The notes: a model not told the origin generated them from the sequence alone. A DNA stretch of 64,000 nucleotides from Candidatus Falkowbacteria bacterium (GCA_003514005.1 DOSJ01000022.1:13804-77803), one strand, 5' to 3'; counted from the stretch's first letter, positions 3,907-25,550 are shown. Numbers and translations are program-made.

Positions 3907-4344
3907 ATATATATAATTTAGTTAATAAATAAGCGCGTTTATTTCAATTAAAATTATTAATTTCTATACTATTATCTTACACCTAAATTATTAAGATATT
4001 ATTAAGAATAATTAAAAAAATATATTAATTCGGATTTTTTTGGTTGGAGTTTTTTAAAGAGTGAAAATCACATTGCCTTTTTTAATTTTGTCTAATCTAA
4101 AATCAAATCACCTAATTTTATATCTCAAATATACGCAGTTTTAGCTCAACTTTTATCAAATATTTATCATCTTTGAAAATTAACCTTTCTATTTCCCCTA
4201 ACCGAAACACTTCTGGTTGGTTGTATTTTGTACAGATTATTGCTTTTATTTTATTATAGTGCCTCTGAAAATGTAAAAACCTGAATTGTTAGTTTTCCTT
4301 AGACTACCAGTTCAGTATATCTAGGGCTAATCATTCTACCTTTT

Positions 4345-5319
4345 TCATTTAGACATAGTAATAAAATATTTTTCCGCCCTCTTATTCCACTGTTTATCAT
4401 TAAACACATTTTTATGTGGGTCTCTTATGGTAATAGGCGAATAACCTTTCACACCCAAACTGTTTTTGTCCACGAGGTAAATATAGTATTCATCCCGCTT
4501 GATTCTAGCGACATCTATCTCGTTTCTTGACCAATAAAAACTCGGCTCTCCCGTATAACATTTTACTTCAATAAATCTATTGGGGATACCGGATTCTGGT
4601 GATTCAAATGAGACGATATCATATCCAGCTGATACGTCATAATCAGATATTTTTTCAATTTCCATATTCTTAGATCCACCCAATCTATCCTTTTCAAATT
4701 CTAATACATAATTTTCTGCTAACTCGCCATTTAGTCTCTTTTCTTCAAGTTGATTATGTAAATTATCAAGGCCGATTTTTCTCCCTTTAATTTCGGGTAA
4801 TACCAATAAGTCAAAAAATCTTCTGTATTTTGCATTTACAATCAATTTATTTATCTTCAAATCAGGGTGTGGAAACAATAATCGAAAATCTATCAAAAGC
4901 TGTTTAAAATTTGAATATTTCAATCGAAAAGCAGAATTTTTTATTTGTATATACCTATATACTATATCATATGAAATATTCTCAGATATAAAAATTTCAT
5001 CAAAAGTTGGGTCATATTTTAGCTCTAAAAATAATCGTTCCAGTATTTTACAACAAATATATTCCTCACTTCTTAAGTACTTGGAAAAAGTTTCATCAAA
5101 ACACAATCCGCCTCCTTGCTCCAATTCAATTATTTTTATATATAGAAGGAATGGCAAACATCCATCAAAAACAACCCTGCCGTTAATTAAGCGGTTTTTA
5201 AAATATCCCTCAACTCCCTCGACATTCCATTTTCCTTTTCGCGATTTAAATTGGTCGAACAATTCCCAAAAGTAGTTAGGAGTACCAAGGTTATCATATT
5301 TACTGAGTTCTTTTAGCAT
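4345..5319 (-). CDS. DUF3883 (NO VEIN C-terminal-like, PD-(D/E)xK-like) domain protein
   Basis: C-terminal segment AENYVLEFEKDRL...GYDIVSF...IEVKCY...SRNE...YYIYLV matches the conserved DUF3883 signature. The D...EVK spacing resembles a PD-(D/E)xK nuclease core. The start overlaps the SNF2 gene stop by 20 nt. Confidence 0.6.
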   Translation of the reverse strand: MLKELSKYDNLGTPNYFWELFDQFKSRKGKWNVEGVEGYFKNRLINGRVVFDGCLPFLLYIKIIELEQGGGLCFDETFSKYLRSEEYICCKILERLFLELKYDPTFDEIFISENISYDIVYRYIQIKNSAFRLKYSNFKQLLIDFRLLFPHPDLKINKLIVNAKYRRFFDLLVLPEIKGRKIGLDNLHNQLEEKRLNGELAENYVLEFEKDRLGGSKNMEIEKISDYDVSAGYDIVSFESPESGIPNRFIEVKCYTGEPSFYWSRNEIDVARIKRDEYYIYLVDKNSLGVKGYSPITIRDPHKNVFNDKQWNKRAEKYFITMSK

Positions 5320-7273
5320 AATCGTCCAATAAGGCCTTGATTAAATCCGTTTCATCAGAATCATCTATACGGGAAAAAAGCGGTATCTCCTCATCAATAA
5401 TCCTTTCCATTCTTTCTACTTTAATGTTAAGTTGCTGGTTTATCACATCATCGACCGAATCCTTCGATAATATGTAATAATAATTCGTTACCTGGCCTTC
5501 GGATAATCCTACCCTATGTATCCTATCTTTCGACTGCAAAAAATTAGAACAGTTGTAATCTCTTTCCATATACACCGCATTATGGCAACCTTTATGCAAA
5601 GAAATCGATTCAGCGACTGCGAAAGGATTTGCAATGACTACTTTAAAATCATTATTAGCCTGATCGTTAAATTTTTTTATGACCGCTTCGCGTTCAATTT
5701 GATCGACTTCCCCAATCAATAATCTGGATTCAATTCCCTTACTCGACAAGAAATCTTTAAACTCTTTTGCGTTTTGAACGAATATCGTCCAAATCAAAAC
5801 CTTTTCATTCCGTTTAATTTTCTCTTTCAATAATTCTAAAATACCGATGAATTTGCTCGGAACCTCTGATTTTATGTAGCTTTTTATTTTAGATAATATT
5901 TGTGAATCATCCTGAAATTCTTCTGGCATTAATTTTCCCGAGACGGTTCTTCCGCTATAATCATCAATTTCAAGAGTATCCTCAATCGGTCTCACAAGTA
6001 ATGAGGGGTTTGTTGAGGCTTGGCGGAGTCTTATTAATTTTGCTTTATTCAAAATATCTTTCACGGTAGCGGAACCATTTTTTTGAAAAGATTTTATATA
6101 TTTCGTTTCGATGAAATCATATATCTCCCTTTGCTGTTTTCCCATCTCGAAGTATATCGTTTTCTCATTTACCGGTGGCAATTTTAAATCAGATTTTTTT
6201 ATCCTGATAAAATATGGGGATATATTTTCAGTAAATCTTTTGACTCTTTCGTTATCAGGAGAACTATTTTTTGTCATATCGACGAGATTTCCATAATGAA
6301 ATTTCAAGATGTCCTTAAATTTAAAAGGATATATGAATTGAAACAGGTTGAATAAATCTTCATATCCATTAGGAACGGGTGTGCCCGTTAATATTACCCT
6401 TGACTTTGCTTCTTTTGCTATATTGATAACACTTTTACCCCAAACGCCTTCAGGATTTTTAATCCGATGGGCTTCATCTACAACCACCATGGTTTTATTT
6501 TTTCTTAGAAAATCAACAATCTCGTTTTGCAATCCATCGACCCCTCCATGGTAGATCAATGTAATCTCGGATGGGAAATACAAATGTTGCTCTTTTTGGC
6601 TCCTGGATACACTGCTATCCCCCGAAAGTCTTTGTGCTTCCGCCTTTTTACCAAAACATTCCTGATATTCATTTTCCCAAGGGGCGAATGAAGACAATGG
6701 GCCAATGACCATAAGTTTGTCTACATGCCTCGGATGATTAATGGGTAAATTTTTTAAATATGCGTAAGCTCCATATACTATCGATGTTTTGCCCGCGCCT
6801 GGCACCGCGAAGTTGCATGCGTTCTGCGCGAAGGCCAAATGGTAAGATGATAATAATTGTAATGGATATAATCTCCTGACTAATTTATTCTTTACAACGG
6901 ATTGAAAGTCATCAAAATCCGAAACGAATTCAGGATTATTTTCAAACTCGTTATTCCTTATTTTTTTTGCTTTTTGCGAAAATTCCTCGAAGTGTTCTTG
7001 CTCCCGATGATAACTATCCATGGCTTTTTGTGTATCGACAGACAAGCTCTCCTTTAAACCGAACTTTACAAACAATTCATTTATTTCTTGCAAAACTTCA
7101 ATCTCTCTGCCTTCTTCGTAGGGCACATGCAAAAGTCCATCTTCCGATTTATAATTCAGACGTTTAAACGAAAACAGGAGCCTTCTATTGGTTAAAATAC
7201 CATCGATTCCGCCCCTGATAATATAGCGCAAATTTTCTGCGTCTAAATGTACTTCGATTCTTTTATCATTCAT
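5300..7273 (-). CDS. SNF2-family ATPase/helicase
   Basis: Motif I VPGAGKTS, motif II VVVDEAHRIKN, motif III LTGTPVPN, motif VI QSKDRIHRVGL, C-terminal HELICc-like region. Confidence 0.85.
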   Translation of the reverse strand: MNDKRIEVHLDAENLRYIIRGGIDGILTNRRLLFSFKRLNYKSEDGLLHVPYEEGREIEVLQEINELFVKFGLKESLSVDTQKAMDSYHREQEHFEEFSQKAKKIRNNEFENNPEFVSDFDDFQSVVKNKLVRRLYPLQLLSSYHLAFAQNACNFAVPGAGKTSIVYGAYAYLKNLPINHPRHVDKLMVIGPLSSFAPWENEYQECFGKKAEAQRLSGDSSVSRSQKEQHLYFPSEITLIYHGGVDGLQNEIVDFLRKNKTMVVVDEAHRIKNPEGVWGKSVINIAKEAKSRVILTGTPVPNGYEDLFNLFQFIYPFKFKDILKFHYGNLVDMTKNSSPDNERVKRFTENISPYFIRIKKSDLKLPPVNEKTIYFEMGKQQREIYDFIETKYIKSFQKNGSATVKDILNKAKLIRLRQASTNPSLLVRPIEDTLEIDDYSGRTVSGKLMPEEFQDDSQILSKIKSYIKSEVPSKFIGILELLKEKIKRNEKVLIWTIFVQNAKEFKDFLSSKGIESRLLIGEVDQIEREAVIKKFNDQANNDFKVVIANPFAVAESISLHKGCHNAVYMERDYNCSNFLQSKDRIHRVGLSEGQVTNYYYILSKDSVDDVINQQLNIKVERMERIIDEEIPLFSRIDDSDETDLIKALLDDYAKRTQ

Positions 7274-7279
7274 AATTTT

Positions 7280-8653
7280 CTACCCTCCAAGACCCTTTTT
7301 TATATCAAACAAAATTTTGTTTATATCTCTTATTTTTTCAAGAATTGCATCGGATTGCTTTGATTCTTTTTTGATATTGAGTCTTTCTAACAAATAAATT
7401 ACATGGTCTAACGTGTTCTCCGGAGATTTGTCTCCGAGCATATTAGTGGTCATATTATTTAAATCCAATACCACTTTCATGACTTCCGGTTCTGCAAACG
7501 CTTTATGCCTTTGATTGATTGACTCAAGTGCATTTTTGGCCGAATTCACCAGTTTTGCCGGCTCATCGGCCGCTTGTCTATTTCTAAGTTGTTGTTGGTG
7601 GACTTCGATATTATCATTTAGTAATCCAATGGCTTCTTTCGCATACTTTTCGTCCCTACCATTCAAATGGGCTTCTAACTTCTCTGAATCATAATCAATT
7701 TTTTCTTCTTTCTCTTTTATGGGTTCAACATTTTCAAAATGAAAATCCTTAAAATTTTTCCATATTTTTTCATCTCCAAAAAAATGATTTTTTTTCCGAC
7801 CATAAGCGATGTTCCTGAATTTTTTACCTTCGTACTTTGCCCGAATGTAATCGAAAGAAATCATTATCAAATCATCAACATCACTCGGTTTATACCCGTC
7901 AAAGGCGTCCGCGCTATCTTTCGATCCGTTAGTAAATTTTTTCAGTAAATTCGTAAGATCAACAAACTGCCCCTCTCTGTCGTCCAATTGCGTATATATA
8001 CCGTTATACTCCAAATAATCTAAATAATCATCCATGATTTCCATTATATCAAGCCAACTCTTTACCGTCGGTTCGGTTTCCCCCATCCAGTCGGCAATCT
8101 TATCGATAGAAACCCCGCGCTGACGCAACCCTTTGACTTTAAGATATTTTTCGGTAGCGTTATAAGATAGCTTCTCATCTTCTCCCATCTGAAAAGATGT
8201 TTCGAGCTTTTCAATTTCAATCGGGTTTTCCTCAAGCGTAACAGGCAACACTACCGCCTTAAAATAATCACACTTTGCCACTCGCAACAACATCGCCCTT
8301 CTATTTCCATCGATTATTATCCCGTCCCTGGTGACAATTCCTATTTTTTGTTGTCCTATTTTTTTCAAACTTTCCAAGGTTTTCTTATTCCTCCCTTCGT
8401 TTGACTCTAAAAGCAACTTTTCTATCAATTTGGTTCCCTCTTCAGTTTCTACATTAATCTCATATTTTTTTCTTTCCAACGATTTCGTCCTACTTAATAT
8501 ACGTCCGTTATATTTATTATAGACCAAGCAATCCAAAGGTATCTTAAACACATCCATTGATTCCAGTTTGTCTTGCCATGGAATCTCTTGATTTCCGAAA
8601 GGTTCTTGCTTTATCACCTCCCCAATTTTTTTTATTCGTGTTTCCTTGTCCAT
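7280..8653 (-). CDS. ParB/Srx-like nuclease domain protein
   Basis: IIDGNRRAMLL resembles the ParB N-terminal GxRRxxA motif. Long C-terminal extension without recognised domain. Sits 6-10 nt from both flanking genes (same operon). Confidence 0.55.
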   Translation of the reverse strand: MDKETRIKKIGEVIKQEPFGNQEIPWQDKLESMDVFKIPLDCLVYNKYNGRILSRTKSLERKKYEINVETEEGTKLIEKLLLESNEGRNKKTLESLKKIGQQKIGIVTRDGIIIDGNRRAMLLRVAKCDYFKAVVLPVTLEENPIEIEKLETSFQMGEDEKLSYNATEKYLKVKGLRQRGVSIDKIADWMGETEPTVKSWLDIMEIMDDYLDYLEYNGIYTQLDDREGQFVDLTNLLKKFTNGSKDSADAFDGYKPSDVDDLIMISFDYIRAKYEGKKFRNIAYGRKKNHFFGDEKIWKNFKDFHFENVEPIKEKEEKIDYDSEKLEAHLNGRDEKYAKEAIGLLNDNIEVHQQQLRNRQAADEPAKLVNSAKNALESINQRHKAFAEPEVMKVVLDLNNMTTNMLGDKSPENTLDHVIYLLERLNIKKESKQSDAILEKIRDINKILFDIKKGLGG

Positions 8654-8663
8654 AATTTTTAAA

Positions 8664-10340
8664 TTAATAAACCAATTTTAACAAACCGTACATCGCCATT
8701 ATCTGAGCGAGTGGAACAGTTTCTTTTGGAAAAAATCCATTGGTTTCAATCTCTTTAAAATATTTATCATGGATTTTTATTTTCTCAGCTAAAACTTTTA
8801 CTATTTCTATCGGATTTCCCTTGTCTTTAAAATACAGATCTTCTTCATAGCTTTTTTGAAGATTCTGGCGCTTACTGATTTCATCTACAAATTTTTTATA
8901 AATACTGAACCTGGGAAAATTTTGTGACAAGATTTTTTCTACGATAGGCAATTCTTTCTTTTTTAAAATTTTTACTTTATGATTATCACCTGTCCCAAAA
9001 AATACACCCACATACCATGTTTTGGCGACATCTTGGTCTTTATTCTCCGGATGATAATTCATCAAGTCAACAGTCATATTTCCCAACTTCAATGGGTGTC
9101 TTCTAAAACGAGCATTTATATTTCGTTTTCGCGGATTATCAAACTTATTTTCTTTAAATGTGTTGAGATTATTTACCTTTTTGTAATTATTTGATAATTT
9201 TGAAAAATCTATCCTGTCATGTTTGATCTCCGATATCTGCATTTTTCTCCTGATTGCCTTTGCAAGAGCACTGCCCATATGCGGACAAACTGCGTTTCCA
9301 ATCTGTTTCCATTTAACCCCTTCCGATCCTACAAACTGATATACATAAGGAAACCCCATTAAACAAGCGATTTCTCTTATAGTTGGTGATCTATATTCAC
9401 CATCACCTTTTCTGTCGTATTCAGATCGATAAATTAATGCTTCTCTTGAGCTGGCGGACTTAGTCGCTAGAATGGTCCTGCTTGGCCTGTCTTCATTTTC
9501 AGGAAAAGACATTCGACCCATAAATGGATGGTTTGTTTTTAAATAATCGGCTTTTTCCCACTCGATTTTATATATACCTGAATCATAAAAGTGATCGGAT
9601 ATTTTTTCAGTCTCCAGGGCTATGCTAGGATAATTAGGGTCTTTCCAAACCTTTTTTTTATTAGTTTCATTCGGTTTAGGCATTTTACTTTTAATTTCTC
9701 GCAATTTAACATATTCCACTTGGGTGATTAACGGTTCTAAAAATTCATTTGTAGCTACCCATTCACCCGCAACAAACCTTTTCCTTCCCTGTGGCGCACC
9801 GAAGTCTCTTGCATTATGTATCGCACCGTTTGTAGTTACGGCTATGTCATCCGGTCTCATTTCATTTTCCAGTGCCCATTCCTTAAGGTTTAGATCCATG
9901 AAGCTGTATTGAATTTTTACGTGCGGCCTTGATTGTGGCACATTTTCCATGTACCATGCTTTCAGTACAGATTTTTTTTCATGCTTTTTTACCGCAACAA
10001 CCCTTAGATAAGTTTCAATCAACCTTATACCGTTTGTCTTGTCCGCTTTTCCTGCCTTGTTTGACATAGAGAATGAAACACAAGACGGACTTCCGACTAA
10101 AACTTCTGCCTTCGGCATCTTATTGATTTCAGAAACATCACCCGACGATTTCCCCCAAAAATCTAAAACGTTTTTCGTTGTGTCGTTTAATCCATGATTT
10201 AAATTGTGTGTGTCAATCGCCGGTTGCCAATAATCAAGCCCCATTATCACGTCAAATCCTTGTTGCCTAAATCCTTCAGAAAAACCACCTGCTCCGCAAA
10301 AAAAATCAATAACTCTCAGTTTGGTTATTTTATTTTTCAT
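8664..10340 (-). CDS. DNA (cytosine-5)-methyltransferase with about 200-aa C-terminal extension
   Basis: Motif I FFCGAGGFS, motif IV GSPSCVSFS (PC-like), motif VI ENV, motif VIII QGRKR, motif IX REIACLMGFP, motif X QIGNAV. An extra about 200 aa lies after motif X. Confidence 0.9.
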   Translation of the reverse strand: MKNKITKLRVIDFFCGAGGFSEGFRQQGFDVIMGLDYWQPAIDTHNLNHGLNDTTKNVLDFWGKSSGDVSEINKMPKAEVLVGSPSCVSFSMSNKAGKADKTNGIRLIETYLRVVAVKKHEKKSVLKAWYMENVPQSRPHVKIQYSFMDLNLKEWALENEMRPDDIAVTTNGAIHNARDFGAPQGRKRFVAGEWVATNEFLEPLITQVEYVKLREIKSKMPKPNETNKKKVWKDPNYPSIALETEKISDHFYDSGIYKIEWEKADYLKTNHPFMGRMSFPENEDRPSRTILATKSASSREALIYRSEYDRKGDGEYRSPTIREIACLMGFPYVYQFVGSEGVKWKQIGNAVCPHMGSALAKAIRRKMQISEIKHDRIDFSKLSNNYKKVNNLNTFKENKFDNPRKRNINARFRRHPLKLGNMTVDLMNYHPENKDQDVAKTWYVGVFFGTGDNHKVKILKKKELPIVEKILSQNFPRFSIYKKFVDEISKRQNLQKSYEEDLYFKDKGNPIEIVKVLAEKIKIHDKYFKEIETNGFFPKETVPLAQIMAMYGLLKLVY

Positions 10341-10582
10341 ATATGTTAAACCACAATTTTTTATTATTTTTTTTTCTCAATTAATTCAAAATTTAACATT
10401 TGCCACCTATTTTCTAAATAATCTTATCTAGTAAAGGGTCGTCCGTGAATACTTGTATTTAAATTAACAAAATTTATAAGATTATAATTATATTATAACA
10501 ATATTCTGGTAATAAATCAATAAAATTATTGTTTTTCTTCCTAAAAATATTAAATATTTTCTTCTTTGTTGTGTGATTATCC

Positions 10583-21731: not shown

Positions 21732-23624
21732 ATGGCAACTAAGAAAAAATATTTAATAATAATTATCGTGGGCTTGTTTGCAATATTATTTTTTATTATA
21801 ACAACAAAAGGGAGACCAAATCAATACGAAACCGTGAAACCACAAAAAGGAGAGATTACTGCCACTGTTTTAGTTAGTGGTGAAACCGAACTTGCCTCCA
21901 GTATTGATCTTAATTTTAAAAACAGTGGTAAGTTAATCGCGCTTAATACCGAAGTCGGACAAATAGTTGGCACCGGTGAAATATTGGCTGAACAAGACGA
22001 CAGGCAACTTAAAGCTGAGATCGATTCTATGCAGGCTGATATAAATCTGCAAGTAACGAGACTTAATCAAGCCCTAGCTGGTGCATCCAAAGAAAGTATT
22101 AAGGTTTCCGAGGTAAACGTGTCCAAGACTAAAACCGCTTATGAATCGGCAATTAATAAACTAGAAAATACAAAAAAAATTTCCGAGGAAAATATTGCGG
22201 AAGCAGAAAAGAGCTACCAGGACATAATTTCTAATACTGACGCGGATATTACTACCTATGAACAGTCAGTGATAACAAACGAAACATCTCTCGAAAATAC
22301 AAAAAAAACTGTGACTCAGACAATAAGCAATAAGCTGTCATCATCTCTAATTCTAATTAAGGAAAAACTGGATTTAGCCGAAGCTGCAAATGATGCCACC
22401 CAGAAGATATTAGATGATGATGTCATTAAGTATAGCTTGAGTGTTAAAAATTTAAGCTACCTTAATTCAACCGAATTAAACCTAAGAATCGCCGGTGAAA
22501 AATTAGATGATGCCATGAGCAAGTTTACTGCAACCAGCGATTCTTCTCAAAGTGTTGACAACATAATTTCCGCCTATGGCGTAACGATTGCCTCGCTCAA
22601 CGCCAGCTATGTAGCTGCATCTGATTGTCTCCATGCCCTGATATATTCCGTAACCAGCTCTAGTTTTACCCAAAGCGACTTGGATGTCTACAAAGCATCT
22701 ATGAATACCCAGAAAGCAAATTTGACCGCCGGCATTACTGCCCTGCAAAACAGCCAACAAACGCTACAAGATGCCCAATTAAGCCAGTTAACCAGTATTT
22801 CTAACGCCGAAAAAACACTGGATCAGTCTAGAGCTAGTCTAAAAAATGCTAAACAGACTTTACTTGATGCCTTTAATCAATCTAAGCTTAAGGCCAAGCA
22901 AGACATTGGTAATGCGCAAGCGGAGGTTGATTCTAATCTGAGTTCACATGAATCTGCCCTTGCTCAATTAGAACAAGCAAAAGCGCCTTCCAGAAAAGTG
23001 GACATCGATGTTTATCGTAGCCAGATCGCCCAGGCAGAAGCATCCAAAAGACAAAAAGAAACGAACCTGGAAGACATGCTGATCCGAGCTACTGCCACCG
23101 GCACGATTTCCCAAATAACAGGCGAGGTTGGGGAAATAATATCTCCCGAAACCAAAATTATTACTTTATTACCAGTCAGTAAAATGCAAGTAAAGGTTGA
23201 TATTTCGGAAAATAATATAGCTGACATAAAAACAGGACAAACAGTTCGGATGTGGCTTGACGCTTTCGGGGAAGAAAAAATATTTTCCGGTAAAATAACG
23301 CGTACCGACCCTTCTGATTCTGTTGTCAGTGGCGCCGTGTATTACAAAACCGTTGTGGTGTTCGAGGACAATGGTGATGAATTAATAAAGCCAGGAATGT
23401 CGGTTAATGTTTATATCGATACTGCTTCAAAAGCCGATGTCTTAACATTGCCGATTAGTGCGATTAAGAATAAAAATGGAAAAAATATTATTCAGACACT
23501 GGAAAACAATCAATCTGTTGAAAAAGAGGTTACTACGGGATTAAAAGATAAAAACGGCCGCATTGAAATCGTTTCAGGTATTACTGAGTCTGATGACGTA
23601 ATCATCGGCAATAAAGCAAAATAA
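21732..23624 (+). CDS. efflux periplasmic adaptor (membrane fusion protein, HlyD/MacA-like)
   Basis: N-terminal TM, very long coiled-coil, C-terminal beta-barrel/MP domain. First gene of an efflux operon. Confidence 0.7.
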   Translation: MATKKKYLIIIIVGLFAILFFIITTKGRPNQYETVKPQKGEITATVLVSGETELASSIDLNFKNSGKLIALNTEVGQIVGTGEILAEQDDRQLKAEIDSMQADINLQVTRLNQALAGASKESIKVSEVNVSKTKTAYESAINKLENTKKISEENIAEAEKSYQDIISNTDADITTYEQSVITNETSLENTKKTVTQTISNKLSSSLILIKEKLDLAEAANDATQKILDDDVIKYSLSVKNLSYLNSTELNLRIAGEKLDDAMSKFTATSDSSQSVDNIISAYGVTIASLNASYVAASDCLHALIYSVTSSSFTQSDLDVYKASMNTQKANLTAGITALQNSQQTLQDAQLSQLTSISNAEKTLDQSRASLKNAKQTLLDAFNQSKLKAKQDIGNAQAEVDSNLSSHESALAQLEQAKAPSRKVDIDVYRSQIAQAEASKRQKETNLEDMLIRATATGTISQITGEVGEIISPETKIITLLPVSKMQVKVDISENNIADIKTGQTVRMWLDAFGEEKIFSGKITRTDPSDSVVSGAVYYKTVVVFEDNGDELIKPGMSVNVYIDTASKADVLTLPISAIKNKNGKNIIQTLENNQSVEKEVTTGLKDKNGRIEIVSGITESDDVIIGNKAK

Positions 23625-23626
23625 TT

Positions 23627-24856
23627 ATGATTACTGACATAAAAACCGCTTTTTTTATCGCGTACAAATCCATCCTCAAAGGCAACCGGTCGACGATGTT
23701 TTTGCTTATTTTTATTTTATCTCTTTCATTTCTAAACTTGATGTTCATTGCCGGTATAATGAAGGGACTGACTTCCGGTATGACCAAAAGCATCATTGAC
23801 ACGTCTCTTGGGCATATTACTATCTCACCGCAAGTTGAACCAACCAAACGCGATTACATAGACAACCAAGACCAGTTAGTAGCTGACATCAAGACGATAC
23901 CGGGAATCGTCGGGGTTACCAGACACTACAAAACAAGCGGCCAGATCAGTTTTGACAAGGAAAAGAACGGCAAATTCGAAACCGTATCCGCTTCAATTGT
24001 CGGCATAGATCCAAATGACGAAAGAAAAGTCCTAACAACTTATCAAAACATTACTTCCGGTAAATTTTTGGATGGCACAGAAACGGATGAAATTGTTATT
24101 TCTTCCAGCATAGCCGGTGGAGGAGAAATTAGCTCACCAGAAGATAATTTAGGTGGTGCTAAAGTTGGCGATCGAGTGATGATAACATTTGCCGGAGGCT
24201 ATGTACGGCATTACAAGATAAAAGGCATATTCGAAGTTTCCATGGGTGGCGCCTCCCAATCTGTATTTGTCAGCTCCAAAGAAGCTGAATCAATTCTAGG
24301 AGTATATAATAATGCCTCGGAAATTGTCGTCAGAGTGGATGAATCTCGGGATACTATTGAAAACTACTATCAAAGGATAAAGGCGATGGCTCCGAACCTA
24401 AAAATACAGCCGTATAGCGACTTGCTTTCCACGATTGGTACCATGCTTTCAGCATTTGATCTAATCGCTACTATTGTCGGAATTATTAGTATTATCGTTG
24501 CGGCAGTTACGATTTTTGTTTTAATTTATGTTAACGCAGTCAACAAAAGAAGACAGATTGGTATCTTGAAAGCAATCGGTATTAAAGAATCCATTATTGA
24601 AATATCATATATTTTTCAATCGGTCTTTTATGCCATATGTAGCGTCGGTATGGGTAGCATTTTAGTGTTCGGAGTGCTTTCGCCTTTACTCAAAGCACAT
24701 CCTATCGCCTTGCCTTTTGGCGATGCCGCACTGGTCTTTACTAATTCTAAAATAATCACATCAGTCGCCAGTATGCTCATCTCTGGATTAGTAGCAGGAT
24801 ATTTGCCTGCCAGAATAGTGGCTAAACAAAGTATTCTGGATGCTATTTGGGGATAA
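23627..24856 (+). CDS. ABC transporter permease (MacB/FtsX-like)
   Basis: N-terminal TM, large periplasmic domain, then a C-terminal FtsX-type 3-TM bundle. Confidence 0.8.
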   Translation: MITDIKTAFFIAYKSILKGNRSTMFLLIFILSLSFLNLMFIAGIMKGLTSGMTKSIIDTSLGHITISPQVEPTKRDYIDNQDQLVADIKTIPGIVGVTRHYKTSGQISFDKEKNGKFETVSASIVGIDPNDERKVLTTYQNITSGKFLDGTETDEIVISSSIAGGGEISSPEDNLGGAKVGDRVMITFAGGYVRHYKIKGIFEVSMGGASQSVFVSSKEAESILGVYNNASEIVVRVDESRDTIENYYQRIKAMAPNLKIQPYSDLLSTIGTMLSAFDLIATIVGIISIIVAAVTIFVLIYVNAVNKRRQIGILKAIGIKESIIEISYIFQSVFYAICSVGMGSILVFGVLSPLLKAHPIALPFGDAALVFTNSKIITSVASMLISGLVAGYLPARIVAKQSILDAIWG

Positions 24857-25550
24857 TTATATGATAAAAGTAAACAAAGTAAAAAAAACATACGAAGGGA
24901 AAGTCCCAACTTATGCTCTAAAAGAAGTATCATTTGAAATAGCTGAAGGGAAATTTGTGGCCCTAATGGGCAGAAGTGGTTCCGGCAAATCAACTCTTCT
25001 CCATCAACTGGGTCTCATTGATACACCGACTTCTGGAAAAATTTATATCAACAACACAGAAGTTACCGCACTTTCGGATATAAAAAAGACCTTTTTCCGC
25101 TTGAAGCATCTCGGTTACGTTTTTCAGGAATATGCGCTTATAGCCGAATTTACAGCCCTTGAGAATGTCCATCTGCCCGCACGCGCCATAGGAAACAAGA
25201 TAAACGAAGGTAGAGCTAAGGAATTACTAGAGTTGGTCGGACTAGGTAACAGATTAAGCCATTATCCTAGTGAAATGTCGGGCGGAGAACAACAACGTGT
25301 CGCCATTGCCCGTTCTCTTATCAATAGCCCCAAAGTACTTTTTGCCGATGAACCGACGGCTAATCTGGATACTGTTTCTTCTGAAACCGTCTTAAAACTT
25401 TTCCAAAAATTAAACCGTGAACTCAAACAAACAATCATTATGGTCACGCATGAACCCGACGACGTTAAATATGTCGACCAGATAATCTGGTTAAAAGACG
25501 GTGGTCTGGAAAAAATTGAGAATAATAACAAAGTTGAATTATTAAAATAG
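24840..25550 (+). CDS. ABC transporter ATP-binding protein (MacB/LolD-type)
   Basis: Walker A GRSGSGKST, signature LSGGEQQR, Walker B LFADEPT. True start is probably the Met at about 24861. Confidence 0.9.
   Translation: MLFGDNYMIKVNKVKKTYEGKVPTYALKEVSFEIAEGKFVALMGRSGSGKSTLLHQLGLIDTPTSGKIYINNTEVTALSDIKKTFFRLKHLGYVFQEYALIAEFTALENVHLPARAIGNKINEGRAKELLELVGLGNRLSHYPSEMSGGEQQRVAIARSLINSPKVLFADEPTANLDTVSSETVLKLFQKLNRELKQTIIMVTHEPDDVKYVDQIIWLKDGGLEKIENNNKVELLK

What the first reader, a model, noticed from the sequence alone, without database searches (positions are those of the whole stretch)
4345..10340. Four-gene operon: C5-MTase, ParB-like protein, SNF2 ATPase, DUF3883 (PD-(D/E)xK-like) protein - candidate uncharacterised restriction/defence system
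The four minus-strand genes are separated by 10 nt and 6 nt, and the last pair overlaps by 20 nt, so this is a single operon. It pairs a modification enzyme (complete C5-MTase motif set) with an SF2 SNF2-type translocase and a separate protein carrying a DUF3883 domain. The DUF3883 GYDI...IEVK...SRNE pattern looks like a PD-(D/E)xK nuclease. A ParB/Srx-like DGNRR protein sits between them. An MTase, translocase and nuclease together follow the logic of ATP-dependent restriction systems (Type I/III, DISARM). The actual components (SNF2, DUF3883, ParB-like, C5 rather than N6/N4 MTase) match none of Type I-IV R-M, BREX, DISARM, Dnd/Ssp or Druantia as far as I can tell. Long AT-rich non-coding gaps flank the operon on both sides (242 bp and 438 bp), as expected for an accessory island.
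Basis: partly seen in the sequence, partly recalled or inferred. Interest (0 to 1): 0.85.

Follow-up and report, generated by a model that had tools for sequence, protein, structure and literature searches.

The report
Methylase-linked ParB–SNF2 defence cassette
This is a real, widely shared four-gene mobile cassette (cytosine methylase, ParB-fold protein, SNF2 motor, winged-helix nuclease) that most likely protects the cell from foreign DNA. It looks like an undescribed, self-contained relative of the old, mechanistically unsolved lactococcal AbiR phage-resistance system.

Summary
Four minus-strand ORFs lie at the stated coordinates with 10-nt and 6-nt gaps and a 20-nt overlap. They encode a complete C5-MTase with a family-specific C-terminal extension, a ParB/Srx-fold+HTH protein that Pfam misses, an intact SNF2 ATPase, and a tandem winged-helix + DUF3883 PD-(D/E)xK nuclease. 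The same gene order recurs across at least ten phyla, including an archaeon. It was the full form in 47 of 71 informative genome loci.

- Gene 4 is modular. In 7 loci its nuclease is replaced by TIR/SEFIR on the same N-terminal domain.
- The invariant core is the ParB-like + SNF2 pair. It is homologous to pairs in Firmicutes plasmid operons that have the published AbiR architecture.
- In 6 loci the core sits beside a Sau3AI/MutH-type REase and a short C5-MTase, the arrangement reported for AbiR with LlaKR2I.

AbiR needs that methylase and is toxic without it. My best reading is a methylation-gated, NTP-driven defence system of the AbiR kind. No PADLOC model assigns it. Verdict: new variant of a known but poorly understood kind. 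The mechanism is inferred, not shown.

The parts
10492..10520 (-). Best sigma-70-like promoter match upstream of the first gene (TTGATT-17-TATAAT with an extended -10 TG). Candidate operon promoter only.
   Evidence: It scores 10 of 12 matches and is the top minus-strand site. The number of promoter-like sites in the region is not above shuffles, so this is weak evidence.
8664..10340 (-). Gene 1: C5 cytosine DNA methyltransferase, 558 aa. The catalytic core is residues 8-364 and the catalytic Cys is C87.
   Evidence: PF00145 1.4e-32. Motifs I, IV, VI, VIII, IX and X are invariant in 36 homologues. PDB sequence hits are DNMT1, HaeIII and HhaI. A vsr gene lies beside the homologous MTase in 29 of 80 loci, though not in the window.
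8667..9224 (-). C-terminal extension of the MTase (about residues 373-558). It is specific to this cassette and its fold is unknown.
   Evidence: It is conserved in homologues, with tblastn reaching residue 557 and alignment A3. A profile search found no PDB hit. One database protein, P0242, fuses this half of the MTase in frame to the ParB-like protein.
7280..8653 (-). Gene 2: ParB/Srx-fold + HTH protein with a long helical C-terminal half, 457 aa.
5300..7273 (-). Gene 3: SNF2-family ATPase, 657 aa. The helicase core is about residues 150-630 and the N-terminal ~150 aa domain has an unknown fold.
   Evidence: PF00176 2.4e-30 and PF00271 3.5e-10. PGAGKT, DEAH and QSKDRIHRVG are invariant. The closest solved relatives are SMARCA5, CHD1L, Chd1 and DDM1. 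It is 30% identical over 540 aa (E 1e-75) to the SNF2 of the E. faecalis AbiR-architecture operon. The N-terminal domain gave no PDB hit.
4735..5319 (-). Gene 4, N-terminal half (residues 1-195): tandem winged-helix adaptor or recognition domain. Its start overlaps the SNF2 stop by 20 nt.
4345..4734 (-). Gene 4, C-terminal half (residues 196-324): DUF3883/NOV_C PD-(D/E)xK nuclease head, the effector.
3907..4344 (.). AT-rich non-coding flank downstream of the cassette (island edge).
   Evidence: No flanking repeats or att-like sites were found.
10341..10582 (.). AT-rich non-coding flank upstream of the cassette. It holds the promoter-like site.

Best explanation
The cassette is a horizontally mobile, methylation-gated defence system built round a ParB-fold protein / SNF2 ATPase pair. 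It is an AbiR-like system that carries its own C5 methylase.

Proposed working:
1. The MTase puts 5-methylcytosine on a short motif in host DNA, marking self.
2. The ParB-like protein acts as an NTP-binding switch or clamp with an HTH. With the SNF2 translocase it forms the NTP-driven surveillance arm on DNA.
3. The gene-4 protein is translationally coupled to SNF2 and co-evolves with it. It docks through its tandem winged-helix half and carries the effector head.
4. On DNA that lacks the mark (phage, plasmid), the complex is licensed and the PD-(D/E)xK head cuts DNA. In sister systems a TIR head instead depletes NAD+, giving abortive infection.
5. Without the methylase the restriction arm should attack self DNA and be toxic, as reported for AbiR.

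Shown here: the genes, folds and catalytic motifs, the synteny, effector swapping, homology of the core to AbiR-architecture operons, the constant adjacency of a C5 MTase, and mobility.

Inferred: every step of the mechanism. That includes which subunit reads the methylation state, which nucleotide the ParB-like protein binds, and whether the outcome is restriction or abortive infection.
For: (a) Tight operon with intact catalytic motifs in all enzymes.

(b) Conserved four-gene order in 47 of 71 informative loci. The loci span Patescibacteria, Bacteroidota, Acidobacteriota, Proteobacteria, Firmicutes, Chloroflexota, Verrucomicrobiota, Campylobacterota and a Methanolobus archaeon. Pairwise distances of all four proteins are correlated.

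(c) Gene 4 has an exchangeable effector head, DUF3883 or TIR/SEFIR, on a homologous N-terminal domain. The TIR catalytic-type Glu is invariant. This is a hallmark of immune systems.

(d) A C5 MTase is adjacent in nearly all loci where the contig allows it. It is either the long form or a short Sau3AI-type MTase paired with a MutH-family REase (L005, L008, L009, L015, L036, L078, L085, L088, L089). A vsr gene is present in 29 of 80 loci, which argues the MTases are active.

(e) The ParB-like and SNF2 proteins are homologous to the pair in an E. faecalis plasmid operon made of a sigma-like HTH protein, a ParB-like protein and an SNF2 helicase. The figures are hhalign 99.1% with E 1.7e-18, and BLASTP 30% over 540 aa with E 1e-75. 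They are also homologous to ParB-like + PLD-SNF2 pairs in Exiguobacterium and Priestia. That is the architecture described for AbiRa/b/c. AbiR requires the LlaKR2I methylase, is toxic without it, and reduces phage DNA replication (PMC13064643). LlaKR2I is a Sau3AI/MutH-family GATC enzyme (PMC4471560).

(f) An SNF2-DUF3883 fusion, HmaA, alone protects against phage T4 (PMC11232893).

(g) Mobility. The island has low G+C. The copy in Moraniibacteriota lies next to a serine recombinase. Copies occur at prophage ends in Streptococcus Javan191 and in 20 IMG/VR contigs.
Against: - There is no experiment on this family.
- The link to AbiR rests on a review's description of the architecture and on homology to AbiR-like operons. 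The pKR223 AbiR sequences and the original papers were not available, so no direct comparison was made.
- The AbiRa-type sigma-like protein is absent here, and gene 4 shows no similarity to it.
- ParB-like + SNF2 cores that are 56-66% identical to the window's work with MTases whose target-recognition domains are unrelated.
- The MTase co-evolves less tightly with the other three genes.
- At least one locus with 4 kb of upstream sequence (L042) shows no MTase.
- ParB-like + SNF2 pairs are common on conjugative plasmids, which also fits a role in plasmid biology.
Confidence: 0.6

Rival explanations
1. Methylation-guard or addiction system that acts by abortive infection. The trigger is not unmethylated incoming DNA as such. 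It is the loss or inhibition of methylation, or a phage protein. The MTase acts as an epigenetic antitoxin. The ParB-SNF2-effector arm kills or arrests the infected cell, or a cell that lost the element, by cutting its own DNA or, in TIR variants, by burning NAD+.
For: AbiR is classed as abortive infection and is toxic without its methylase. TIR/SEFIR effector variants are typical of abortive infection. The cassette rides on mobile elements, which suits post-segregational killing.
Against: The sequence cannot separate this from the main model, because both predict toxicity without the MTase. A nuclease with winged-helix DNA-binding domains and a dsDNA translocase is what classical ATP-dependent restriction uses. 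The 'Abi' label for AbiR predates modern criteria, and the review lists host fate as unknown.
Confidence: 0.18
2. Two systems that merely travel together. One is an ordinary Type II-like R-M pair (C5 MTase + DUF3883 REase). The other is an independent or accessory ParB-like/SNF2 module inserted between them.
For: DUF3883 has been treated as a Type II REase family (PMC10609329). In L008 and L009 a Sau3AI-like REase sits exactly where gene 4 normally sits. ParB-like + SNF2 pairs also follow a Type III R-M in a lactococcal plasmid. The MTase is phylogenetically the loosest member.
Against: Gene 4 overlaps the SNF2 stop codon in 63 of 64 loci. Its N-terminal domain co-evolves with the SNF2 core at r 0.92. 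ParB-like / SNF2 / gene 4 stay together when the long MTase is replaced (L015, L036, L078 and the prophage subtype). The N-terminal domain of gene 4 is kept when the nuclease is swapped for TIR. The MTase carries a cassette-specific extension and is once fused to the ParB-like protein.
Confidence: 0.1
3. A module that serves the mobile element: establishment, anti-restriction, partition or replication control. The ParB-like protein, SNF2 ATPase and methylase would protect or organise the element's own DNA, as in polyvalent proteins of phages and conjugative plasmids.
For: ParB, SNF2 and MTase domains are recurrent in polyvalent proteins of phages and plasmids (PMC5512222, listed but not read in detail). 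Homologous ParB-like + SNF2 pairs lie on 60+ Firmicutes plasmids, mostly conjugative or mobilizable. The L083 pair lies next to ParA genes.
Against: There is no partner ParA or centromere repeats in the window. A nuclease or TIR effector is hard to reconcile with a protective role. The cassette lies in chromosomes of tiny CPR genomes, away from replication genes. AbiR has a phage-resistance phenotype.
Confidence: 0.07
4. Housekeeping epigenetic or chromatin function. An SNF2 remodeller would help a C5 methylase reach DNA, as DDM1/LSH do with DNMTs in eukaryotes, for gene regulation or repair.
For: The closest solved SNF2 relatives include DDM1 and LSH, and the MTase hits DNMT1. vsr is often adjacent.
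Against: The distribution is patchy and horizontally transferred. The island has low G+C. Copies are carried by prophages and plasmids. Nuclease/TIR effector heads are present. Decayed copies exist (L060, L062, L072).
Confidence: 0.03

Closest known systems
AbiR (Lactococcus lactis pKR223: AbiRa/AbiRb/AbiRc plus the M.LlaKR2I methylase)
   Different: There is no sigma70-like AbiRa protein. The nuclease is a separate winged-helix + DUF3883 protein (or TIR), not a domain at the N-terminus of the SNF2 protein. The methylase is dedicated, in the operon, and carries a special C-terminal extension. The family spans many phyla and archaea, not lactococcal plasmids.
Hma (HmaA SNF2-DUF3883 fusion, HmaB DUF1156 methylase, HmaC DUF499 ATPase)
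   Same: An SNF2 motor is combined with a DUF3883 PD-(D/E)xK nuclease and linked to a methylase gene. HmaA alone defends against T4 (PMC11232893).
   Different: Here SNF2 and DUF3883 are two overlapping genes. HmaA was not among the listed PADLOC hits of the window's SNF2 protein. The methylase is C5 (PF00145), not DUF1156. There is no DUF499 ATPase. A ParB-fold protein is added.
Type III / Type ISP ATP-dependent restriction-modification
   Same: The logic is shared: a methylase marks self, and an SF2 motor plus a PD-(D/E)xK nuclease act on unmarked DNA using NTP hydrolysis.
   Different: The motor is SNF2 family, not Res. The methylase is C5, not N6. The nuclease is a separate, exchangeable protein. 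There is a ParB-fold fourth component. It is unknown whether the MTase is the recognition subunit of the restriction complex.
Dpd and Dnd modification-restriction systems (DpdB / DndB ParB-superfamily proteins; DpdE SNF2)
   Same: A ParB-superfamily NTPase is encoded with a DNA-modification enzyme and, in Dpd, with an SNF2 helicase. DpdE models hit the SNF2 core.
   Different: The modification chemistry differs (7-deazaguanine or phosphorothioate, against m5C). No DpdB or DndB model in NCBIfam or PADLOC matches gene 2. The gene sets are otherwise unrelated.
DISARM class 2 and Druantia type II (C5 methylase DrmMII / DruM with helicases)
   Same: A C5 methylase is linked to large helicase-based defence. 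The PADLOC DrmMII, DruM and DrmD models give domain-level hits.
   Different: The signature genes are absent: DrmA, DrmB (DUF1998), DrmC and DrmE, or DruE, DruF and DruG.
PD-T4-1 and TmtA (DUF3883-bearing defence proteins)
   Same: The DUF3883 nuclease head matches: PADLOC 4.5e-15 and 7e-12 over residues about 187-287.
   Different: The match is to the domain only. Those are single proteins or other architectures, without an MTase, ParB-like or SNF2 partner.

Membership tests
AbiR | ParB-fold protein (AbiRb) | tested here: met
AbiR | SNF2-family ATPase encoded immediately after the ParB-like gene (AbiRc) | tested here: met
   PF00176 and PF00271. The gap is 6 nt. It is 30% identical over 540 aa, E 1e-75, to the SNF2 of the E. 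faecalis operon L084.
AbiR | Sigma70-like HTH protein (AbiRa) | tested here: not met
   The cassette has no such gene. Gene 4 compared with the sigma-like protein of L084 gives hhalign probability 0.1%.
AbiR | Endonuclease-like domain at the N-terminus of the SNF2 protein | tested here: inconclusive
   The window's SNF2 protein has a ~150-aa N-terminal domain with no Pfam or PDB match and few conserved residues. The Exiguobacterium and Priestia relatives carry PLDc_2 there. Here the nuclease is the separate gene 4.
AbiR | Function depends on a C5 methylase; toxic without it | not testable with these tools
   Only the genomic correlate could be checked. A C5 MTase is adjacent in nearly all loci, including Sau3AI/LlaKR2I-type pairs in 6.
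AbiR | Sequence homology to the pKR223 AbiRa/b/c proteins themselves | not tested
   The sequences and original papers were not available. PADLOC 2.0.0 gave no AbiR hit even for lactococcal or enterococcal relatives. No hit named AbiR appeared.
Hma | HmaA: SNF2 helicase fused to a DUF3883 nuclease | tested here: not met
   Both domains are present but on two proteins. The HmaA model is not among the listed hits of gene 3.
Hma | HmaB (DUF1156 methylase) and HmaC (DUF499 ATPase) | tested here: not met
   The MTase is PF00145. There is no DUF499 or DUF1156 gene in or near the cassette.
DISARM | DrmA helicase + DrmB (DUF1998) + DrmC (PLD) core | tested here: not met
   There are only weak generic helicase hits to DrmD and DrmA and MTase hits to DrmMII. 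No DUF1998 or PLD gene is present.
Druantia type II | DruE helicase with DruF and DruG alongside DruM | tested here: not met
   Only DruM-type MTase models hit gene 1. No DruE, DruF or DruG is present.
Dnd / Dpd ParB-superfamily partners | DndB (DGQHR) or DpdB family membership of the ParB-like protein | tested here: not met
   Gene 2 has no NCBIfam or PADLOC hit at E<=0.01-1. The motif is DGNRR, not DGQHR.
ParB-CTPase fold (ParB/Srx superfamily) | ParB/Srx fold with the Box II / P-motif arginines (GxxR) | tested here: met
Type II R-M | Stand-alone MTase + REase pair sufficient for function, with no NTP requirement | not testable with these tools
   A complete MTase and a PD-(D/E)xK protein are present. 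However, the nuclease is translationally coupled to and co-evolves with an SNF2 ATPase, which argues against a plain Type II pair.
PD-(D/E)xK nucleases (DUF3883/NOV_C) | Restriction-endonuclease-like fold with the E...D...ExK catalytic set | tested here: met

The most novel reading that the evidence does not exclude
The cassette represents a distinct class of self/non-self immunity. A ParB-fold NTP switch or clamp and an SNF2 translocase read the m5C state of DNA, through the MTase or the winged-helix protein. They then license interchangeable effectors: a PD-(D/E)xK nuclease, a TIR/SEFIR NADase, or even a Type II REase. This would be R-M-style epigenetic discrimination wired to Abi-style outputs. 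It would also explain the 25-year-old AbiR puzzle and give the ParB-CTPase fold a role in immune surveillance.
Probability: 0.3. Interest if true: 0.8.

Novelty: new variant of a known kind. Interest (0 to 1): 0.62.

Why it matters
If the reading is right, a phage-resistance system known only from a lactococcal plasmid (AbiR, 2000/2006, mechanism unknown) belongs to a large family mobile across phyla. The ParB-like protein alone has about 200 close and about 1500 distant 50%-identity clusters. One branch, the one in this window, is self-contained with its own methylase.

This gives a compact four-gene model for three questions:
- What does a ParB-fold NTPase do in immunity?
- How is a methylation mark coupled to an SNF2 motor?
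- How can the same sensor drive either a nuclease or a TIR domain?

It also matters for annotation. Gene 2 is invisible to Pfam, NCBIfam and PADLOC, so these loci are currently scored as an orphan methylase plus 'hypothetical' genes. It may matter for transforming CPR and Bacteroidota hosts that carry the cassette.

Tried and rejected
- A genome scan with the single ParB-like protein found no confirmed relative. The alignment-based rescan was needed.
- Profile searches of the MTase C-terminal extension and the SNF2 N-terminal domain against PDB gave nothing.
- The AFDB50 fold library was unavailable.
- The original AbiR papers were not held. The review has no supplementary sequences. A large search seeded with the enterococcal ParB-like protein returned no protein named AbiR.
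- PADLOC has no model matching the AbiR-like sigma-like or ParB-like proteins, so 'not assigned by PADLOC' is weak evidence of novelty.
- I looked for att-like direct or inverted repeats at the island edges and for a nearby tRNA. There were none.
- The promoter/terminator scan was not above shuffles.
- Gene 4 as an AbiRa equivalent: no similarity.
- The long MTase as a Sau3AI-type (GATC) enzyme: only the generic N-terminal motifs align and the target-recognition domains are unrelated, so the target motif is unknown.
- A mirror-tree test for co-evolution of the MTase target-recognition domain with gene 2 or gene 4 was uninformative, with partial r 0.14-0.22.
- Aravind-lab papers on Dnd and BREX relatives and the ParB-CTPase survey do not describe this cassette.
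Full report

Yes. The ORF list gives four minus-strand ORFs at exactly the stated coordinates:
- 8664-10340 (558 aa)
- 7280-8653 (457 aa)
- 5300-7273 (657 aa)
- 4345-5319 (324 aa)

They are separated by 10 nt and 6 nt, and the last pair overlaps by 20 nt. Non-coding flanks of 242 bp and 438 bp bracket them. G+C in the block is about 0.29-0.39 against 0.42-0.45 in the flanks.

Pfam confirms three of the four domain calls:
- PF00145 (1.4e-32) on protein 1.
- PF00176 + PF00271 on protein 3.
- PF13020 (NOV_C/DUF3883, 3.3e-14) on protein 4.

PF02195 would therefore not have confirmed it.

So it has a ParB/Srx fold plus an HTH, followed by a long helical half. Its invariant motifs are YNKYNGRILS, IIDGNRR and LETxxQMGEDEK. 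The GxRR stretch corresponds to the phosphate-binding P-motif (Box II) of ParB-CTPase-fold proteins, using the names from bioRxiv 10.1101/2025.10.10.680097. That correspondence is my inference from spacing and fold. Nucleotide binding was not tested.

The window comes from a Candidatus Falkowbacteria (CPR) genome, by a 100% identical database protein.

**2. The individual proteins**

*MTase.* It keeps every C5-MTase motif in 36 aligned homologues, including the catalytic Cys87. It also carries a ~190-residue C-terminal extension that is conserved within this cassette family. The extension matches nothing in PDB by profile.

*SNF2 protein.* It keeps the Walker A motif (PGAGKT), DEAH and motif VI. 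Its closest solved relatives are eukaryotic remodellers: SMARCA5, CHD1L, Chd1 and DDM1. Its first ~150 residues are a poorly conserved domain of unknown fold.

*Gene 4.* It has two parts (model pLDDT 85).

The residues E202, D234, E251-x-K253 and N266-E267 are invariant.

**3. Co-conservation**

A pattern scan of one genome per species found 179 relatives of the ParB-like protein. The best 80 loci were fetched. They come from Patescibacteria, Bacteroidota, Acidobacteriota, Proteobacteria, Campylobacterota, Firmicutes, Chloroflexota, Verrucomicrobiota, Omnitrophota, Melainabacteria and a Methanolobus archaeon.

tblastn and blastp of the four window proteins against these loci show:
- 71 loci have intact ParB-like + SNF2 ORFs.
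- 47 of those have the full order: long MTase, ParB-like, SNF2, DUF3883.
- Several of the remainder are cut by contig ends.
- Gene 4 overlaps the SNF2 stop codon in 63 of 64 loci, with a median overlap of 23 nt.
- The median MTase-to-ParB-like and ParB-like-to-SNF2 gaps are 0 and -1 nt.

Pairwise distances of all four proteins are correlated. The strongest inter-protein pair is the SNF2 core with the gene-4 N-terminal domain (r 0.92). The MTase is the loosest member. This analysis is exploratory because the pairs are not independent.

The family is sizeable. There are 1123 ninety-percent clusters of the ParB-like protein. At 50% identity there are 1533 clusters at E<=1e-3 and 203 at E<=1e-30.

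The first refutation test, that the genes are not co-conserved, is clearly not met.

**4. What the variants reveal**

(a) *The effector head is exchangeable.* In L055-L059 and L064 the fourth gene has the same size and the same overlap with SNF2, but ends in a TIR domain (PF13676, about 1e-14). In L054 it ends in TIR/SEFIR. Its N-terminal ~195 residues are homologous to those of the DUF3883 form (hhalign 90.5%, E 1.4e-6). The TIR domains keep an invariant Glu at the position expected for the catalytic residue (the assignment is an inference). A conserved adaptor carrying alternative toxic heads is typical of immune systems.

(b) *The invariant core is ParB-like + SNF2.* In L005, L008, L009, L015, L036 and L078 the long MTase is missing. 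The core then lies next to a short classical C5-MTase plus a MutH/Sau3AI-family endonuclease. In L008 and L009 that endonuclease takes the place of gene 4. The long and short MTases share only the generic N-terminal motifs. Yet the ParB-like and SNF2 proteins in those loci are as similar to the window's as any others, at 56% and 64-66%. The core therefore probably does not read the methylated sequence itself.

(c) *A vsr gene is often present.* A very-short-patch repair gene adjoins the cassette in 29 of 80 loci. It is the usual companion of an active m5C methylase. The window has none.

(d) *One fusion protein.* Database protein P0242 is an in-frame fusion of the C-terminal half of the long MTase with the ParB-like protein. 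This hints at physical contact. It is a single case and could be an artefact.

**5. Link to known systems**

PADLOC-DB 2.0.0 gives only domain-level hits and nothing for gene 2:
- MTase_II, DruM and DrmMII for gene 1.
- ZorD, DpdE and DrmD for gene 3.
- PD-T4-1, TmtA and PDC-S36 for the DUF3883 head.

Two literature leads matter.

*Hma.* HmaA is an SNF2 helicase fused to a DUF3883 nuclease, and it protects against T4 on its own (PMC11232893). The window splits that pairing into two coupled genes. It lacks HmaB and HmaC.

*AbiR.* This is the more important lead. A 2026 review of lactococcal Abi systems (PMC13064643) describes AbiR of plasmid pKR223 as three proteins:
- AbiRa, sigma70-like.
- AbiRb, ParB-like, best superposed on 5K5D. 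That is the same top entry as for gene 2.
- AbiRc, with an endonuclease-like N-terminus and an SNF2-type ATPase.

AbiR needs the methylase of the neighbouring LlaKR2I R-M system. It is toxic in its absence and reduces phage DNA replication. LlaKR2I belongs to the Sau3AI/MutH family of GATC enzymes (PMC4471560). That is the type found beside the core in the six variant loci above.

tblastn of gene 2 against plasmids found distant homologues, about 30% identity over the ParB domain. Some are annotated 'ParB N-terminal domain-containing protein'. Their contexts are:
- *E. faecalis* pNY13410 (L084): a sigma-factor-like HTH protein (864 aa), then a ParB-like protein (405 aa), then an SNF2 helicase (620 aa). 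This is the AbiR architecture.
- *Priestia* plasmid (L085): dcm, then ParB-like + PLD-SNF2, then a MutH/Sau3AI endonuclease.
- *Exiguobacterium* plasmid (L083): ParB-like + PLDc_2-SNF2.
- *L. lactis* plasmid (L082): a Type III Mod-Res pair followed directly by ParB-like + SNF2.

Homology to the window proteins is solid:
- ParB-like: hhalign 99.1-99.4%, E 1e-18 to 1e-21.
- SNF2: 30% identity over 540 residues, E 1e-75.
- Gene 4 shows no similarity to the sigma-like protein.

There is a caveat. I could not obtain the pKR223 sequences or the original papers. A search seeded with the enterococcal protein returned no hit named AbiR. Membership of the AbiR family in the strict sense is therefore inferred from architecture, not tested by direct alignment.

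**6. Mobility and context**

- In the closest relative (71% identity, Moraniibacteriota) the cassette lies beside a large serine recombinase and primase-like genes, with different flanks from the window.
- In Streptococcus 'phage' Javan191 and in 20 IMG/VR contigs, a ParB-like / SNF2 / DUF3883 set with a convergent C5 MTase sits within a few kb of the element's end.
- In the window itself the neighbours are ordinary: a CAAX protease, a DsbD-like protein, ABC transporters and a YtxH-like small protein.
- No att-like repeats or tRNA flank the block.
- Some genomes carry decayed copies: L060, L062 and L072.

**7. Most likely mechanism**

I propose a methylation-gated, NTP-driven defence system of the AbiR kind (confidence about 0.6).
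1. The MTase marks self DNA with m5C.
2. The ParB-like switch or clamp and the SNF2 translocase form the surveillance arm.
3. The winged-helix protein, bound to SNF2, carries the effector.
4. Unmarked DNA licenses cleavage, or NAD+ depletion in the TIR forms.

Everything beyond folds, motifs, synteny, homology and effector swapping is inference. The candidates are the MTase itself, docked through its special extension as in Type III enzymes, or the winged-helix half of gene 4.

The rivals are:
- A methylation-guard or addiction system with an abortive outcome (0.18). It cannot be separated from the main model by sequence.
- A plain Type II pair plus an independent ParB-SNF2 module (0.10). It is disfavoured by coupling, co-evolution and the TIR swap.
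- A module serving the mobile element (0.07).
- A housekeeping epigenetic role (0.03).

**8. Novelty and score**

- This is a coherent cassette.
- It is defence-like.
- It matches none of the large named systems.

It missed the following:
- AbiR and Hma.
- That ParB-like + SNF2 is the core.
- That the nuclease is only one of several effector heads.

I rate the finding a new variant of a known, poorly understood kind, with interest 0.62. It is not categorically new. It does connect an unsolved classical Abi system to a large cross-domain family. It also offers a compact, self-contained model for how a ParB-fold NTPase and an SNF2 motor couple a methylation mark to interchangeable effectors.

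Noticed in passing
L070:7808-8254 (+), and 28 other loci, e.g. L025:7809-8249 and L011:7605-8039: A vsr (very-short-patch repair endonuclease, PF03852) gene lies next to the cassette in 29 of 80 genome loci, usually just upstream of the MTase. The window has no vsr.
   Followed up: partly
L070:6349-7617 (-) and L025:6319-7590 (-): A second, divergent ParB-like paralogue (~422 aa) is encoded divergently upstream of vsr + MTase. It is followed by an alpha/beta-hydrolase (272 aa) and a 182-aa ORF. This may be another module centred on a ParB-like protein.
   Followed up: partly
protein P0242 (749 aa): A single ORF joins the C-terminal half of the long MTase (53% identical to window MTase residues 274-545) in frame to a full ParB-like protein. 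This could be a Rosetta-stone hint of MTase-ParB-like contact, or an assembly or frameshift artefact.
   Followed up: partly
L078:14349-15377 (+) and L078:5651-8656 (+): In Candidatus Pseudothioglobus the cassette is followed by an extra DUF3427 + NOV_C protein, an architecture seen in modification-dependent restriction enzymes. It is preceded by a 1001-aa protein with a MutH domain.
   Followed up: no
L047, L049, L053: Loci from Peribacteria, Patescibacteria and Gracilibacteria match all four proteins by tblastn. They give no long ORFs under table 11. This fits genomes with a reassigned stop codon.
   Followed up: no
L060:7654-11438, L062:9992-13232, L072:10001-11426: The ParB-like and/or SNF2 genes are broken into several ORFs. 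In L060 there is extra DNA between the fragments. These look like decaying or interrupted copies of the cassette.
   Followed up: no
L082:3008-11714 (L. lactis plasmid pIBB109_AgSa_3): A Type III R-M pair (Mod, Res) is followed, with an 11-nt overlap, by a ParB-like protein (423 aa), an SNF2 helicase (620 aa) and a 201-aa ORF. ParB-SNF2 cores therefore also attach to N6-type R-M systems.
   Followed up: partly
L081:1-921 (+) (Streptococcus phage Javan191): The ORF before the ParB-like gene resembles BanI/DpnII-type restriction enzymes. A convergent C5 MTase and an LlaI-methylase fragment follow gene 4. The end of this prophage-like element is a small defence cluster.
   Followed up: partly
window 8664-10340, residue 86 of the MTase: Motif IV reads SPSC in the window and in 7 of 36 homologues, instead of the usual SPPC. 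The Pro before the catalytic Cys is replaced by Ser, and the Cys itself is invariant.
   Followed up: no
window 21732-25550 (+): A HlyD-like / FtsX-like / ABC ATPase trio (MacAB-type efflux genes) lies downstream in the window. It is unrelated to the finding.
   Followed up: no
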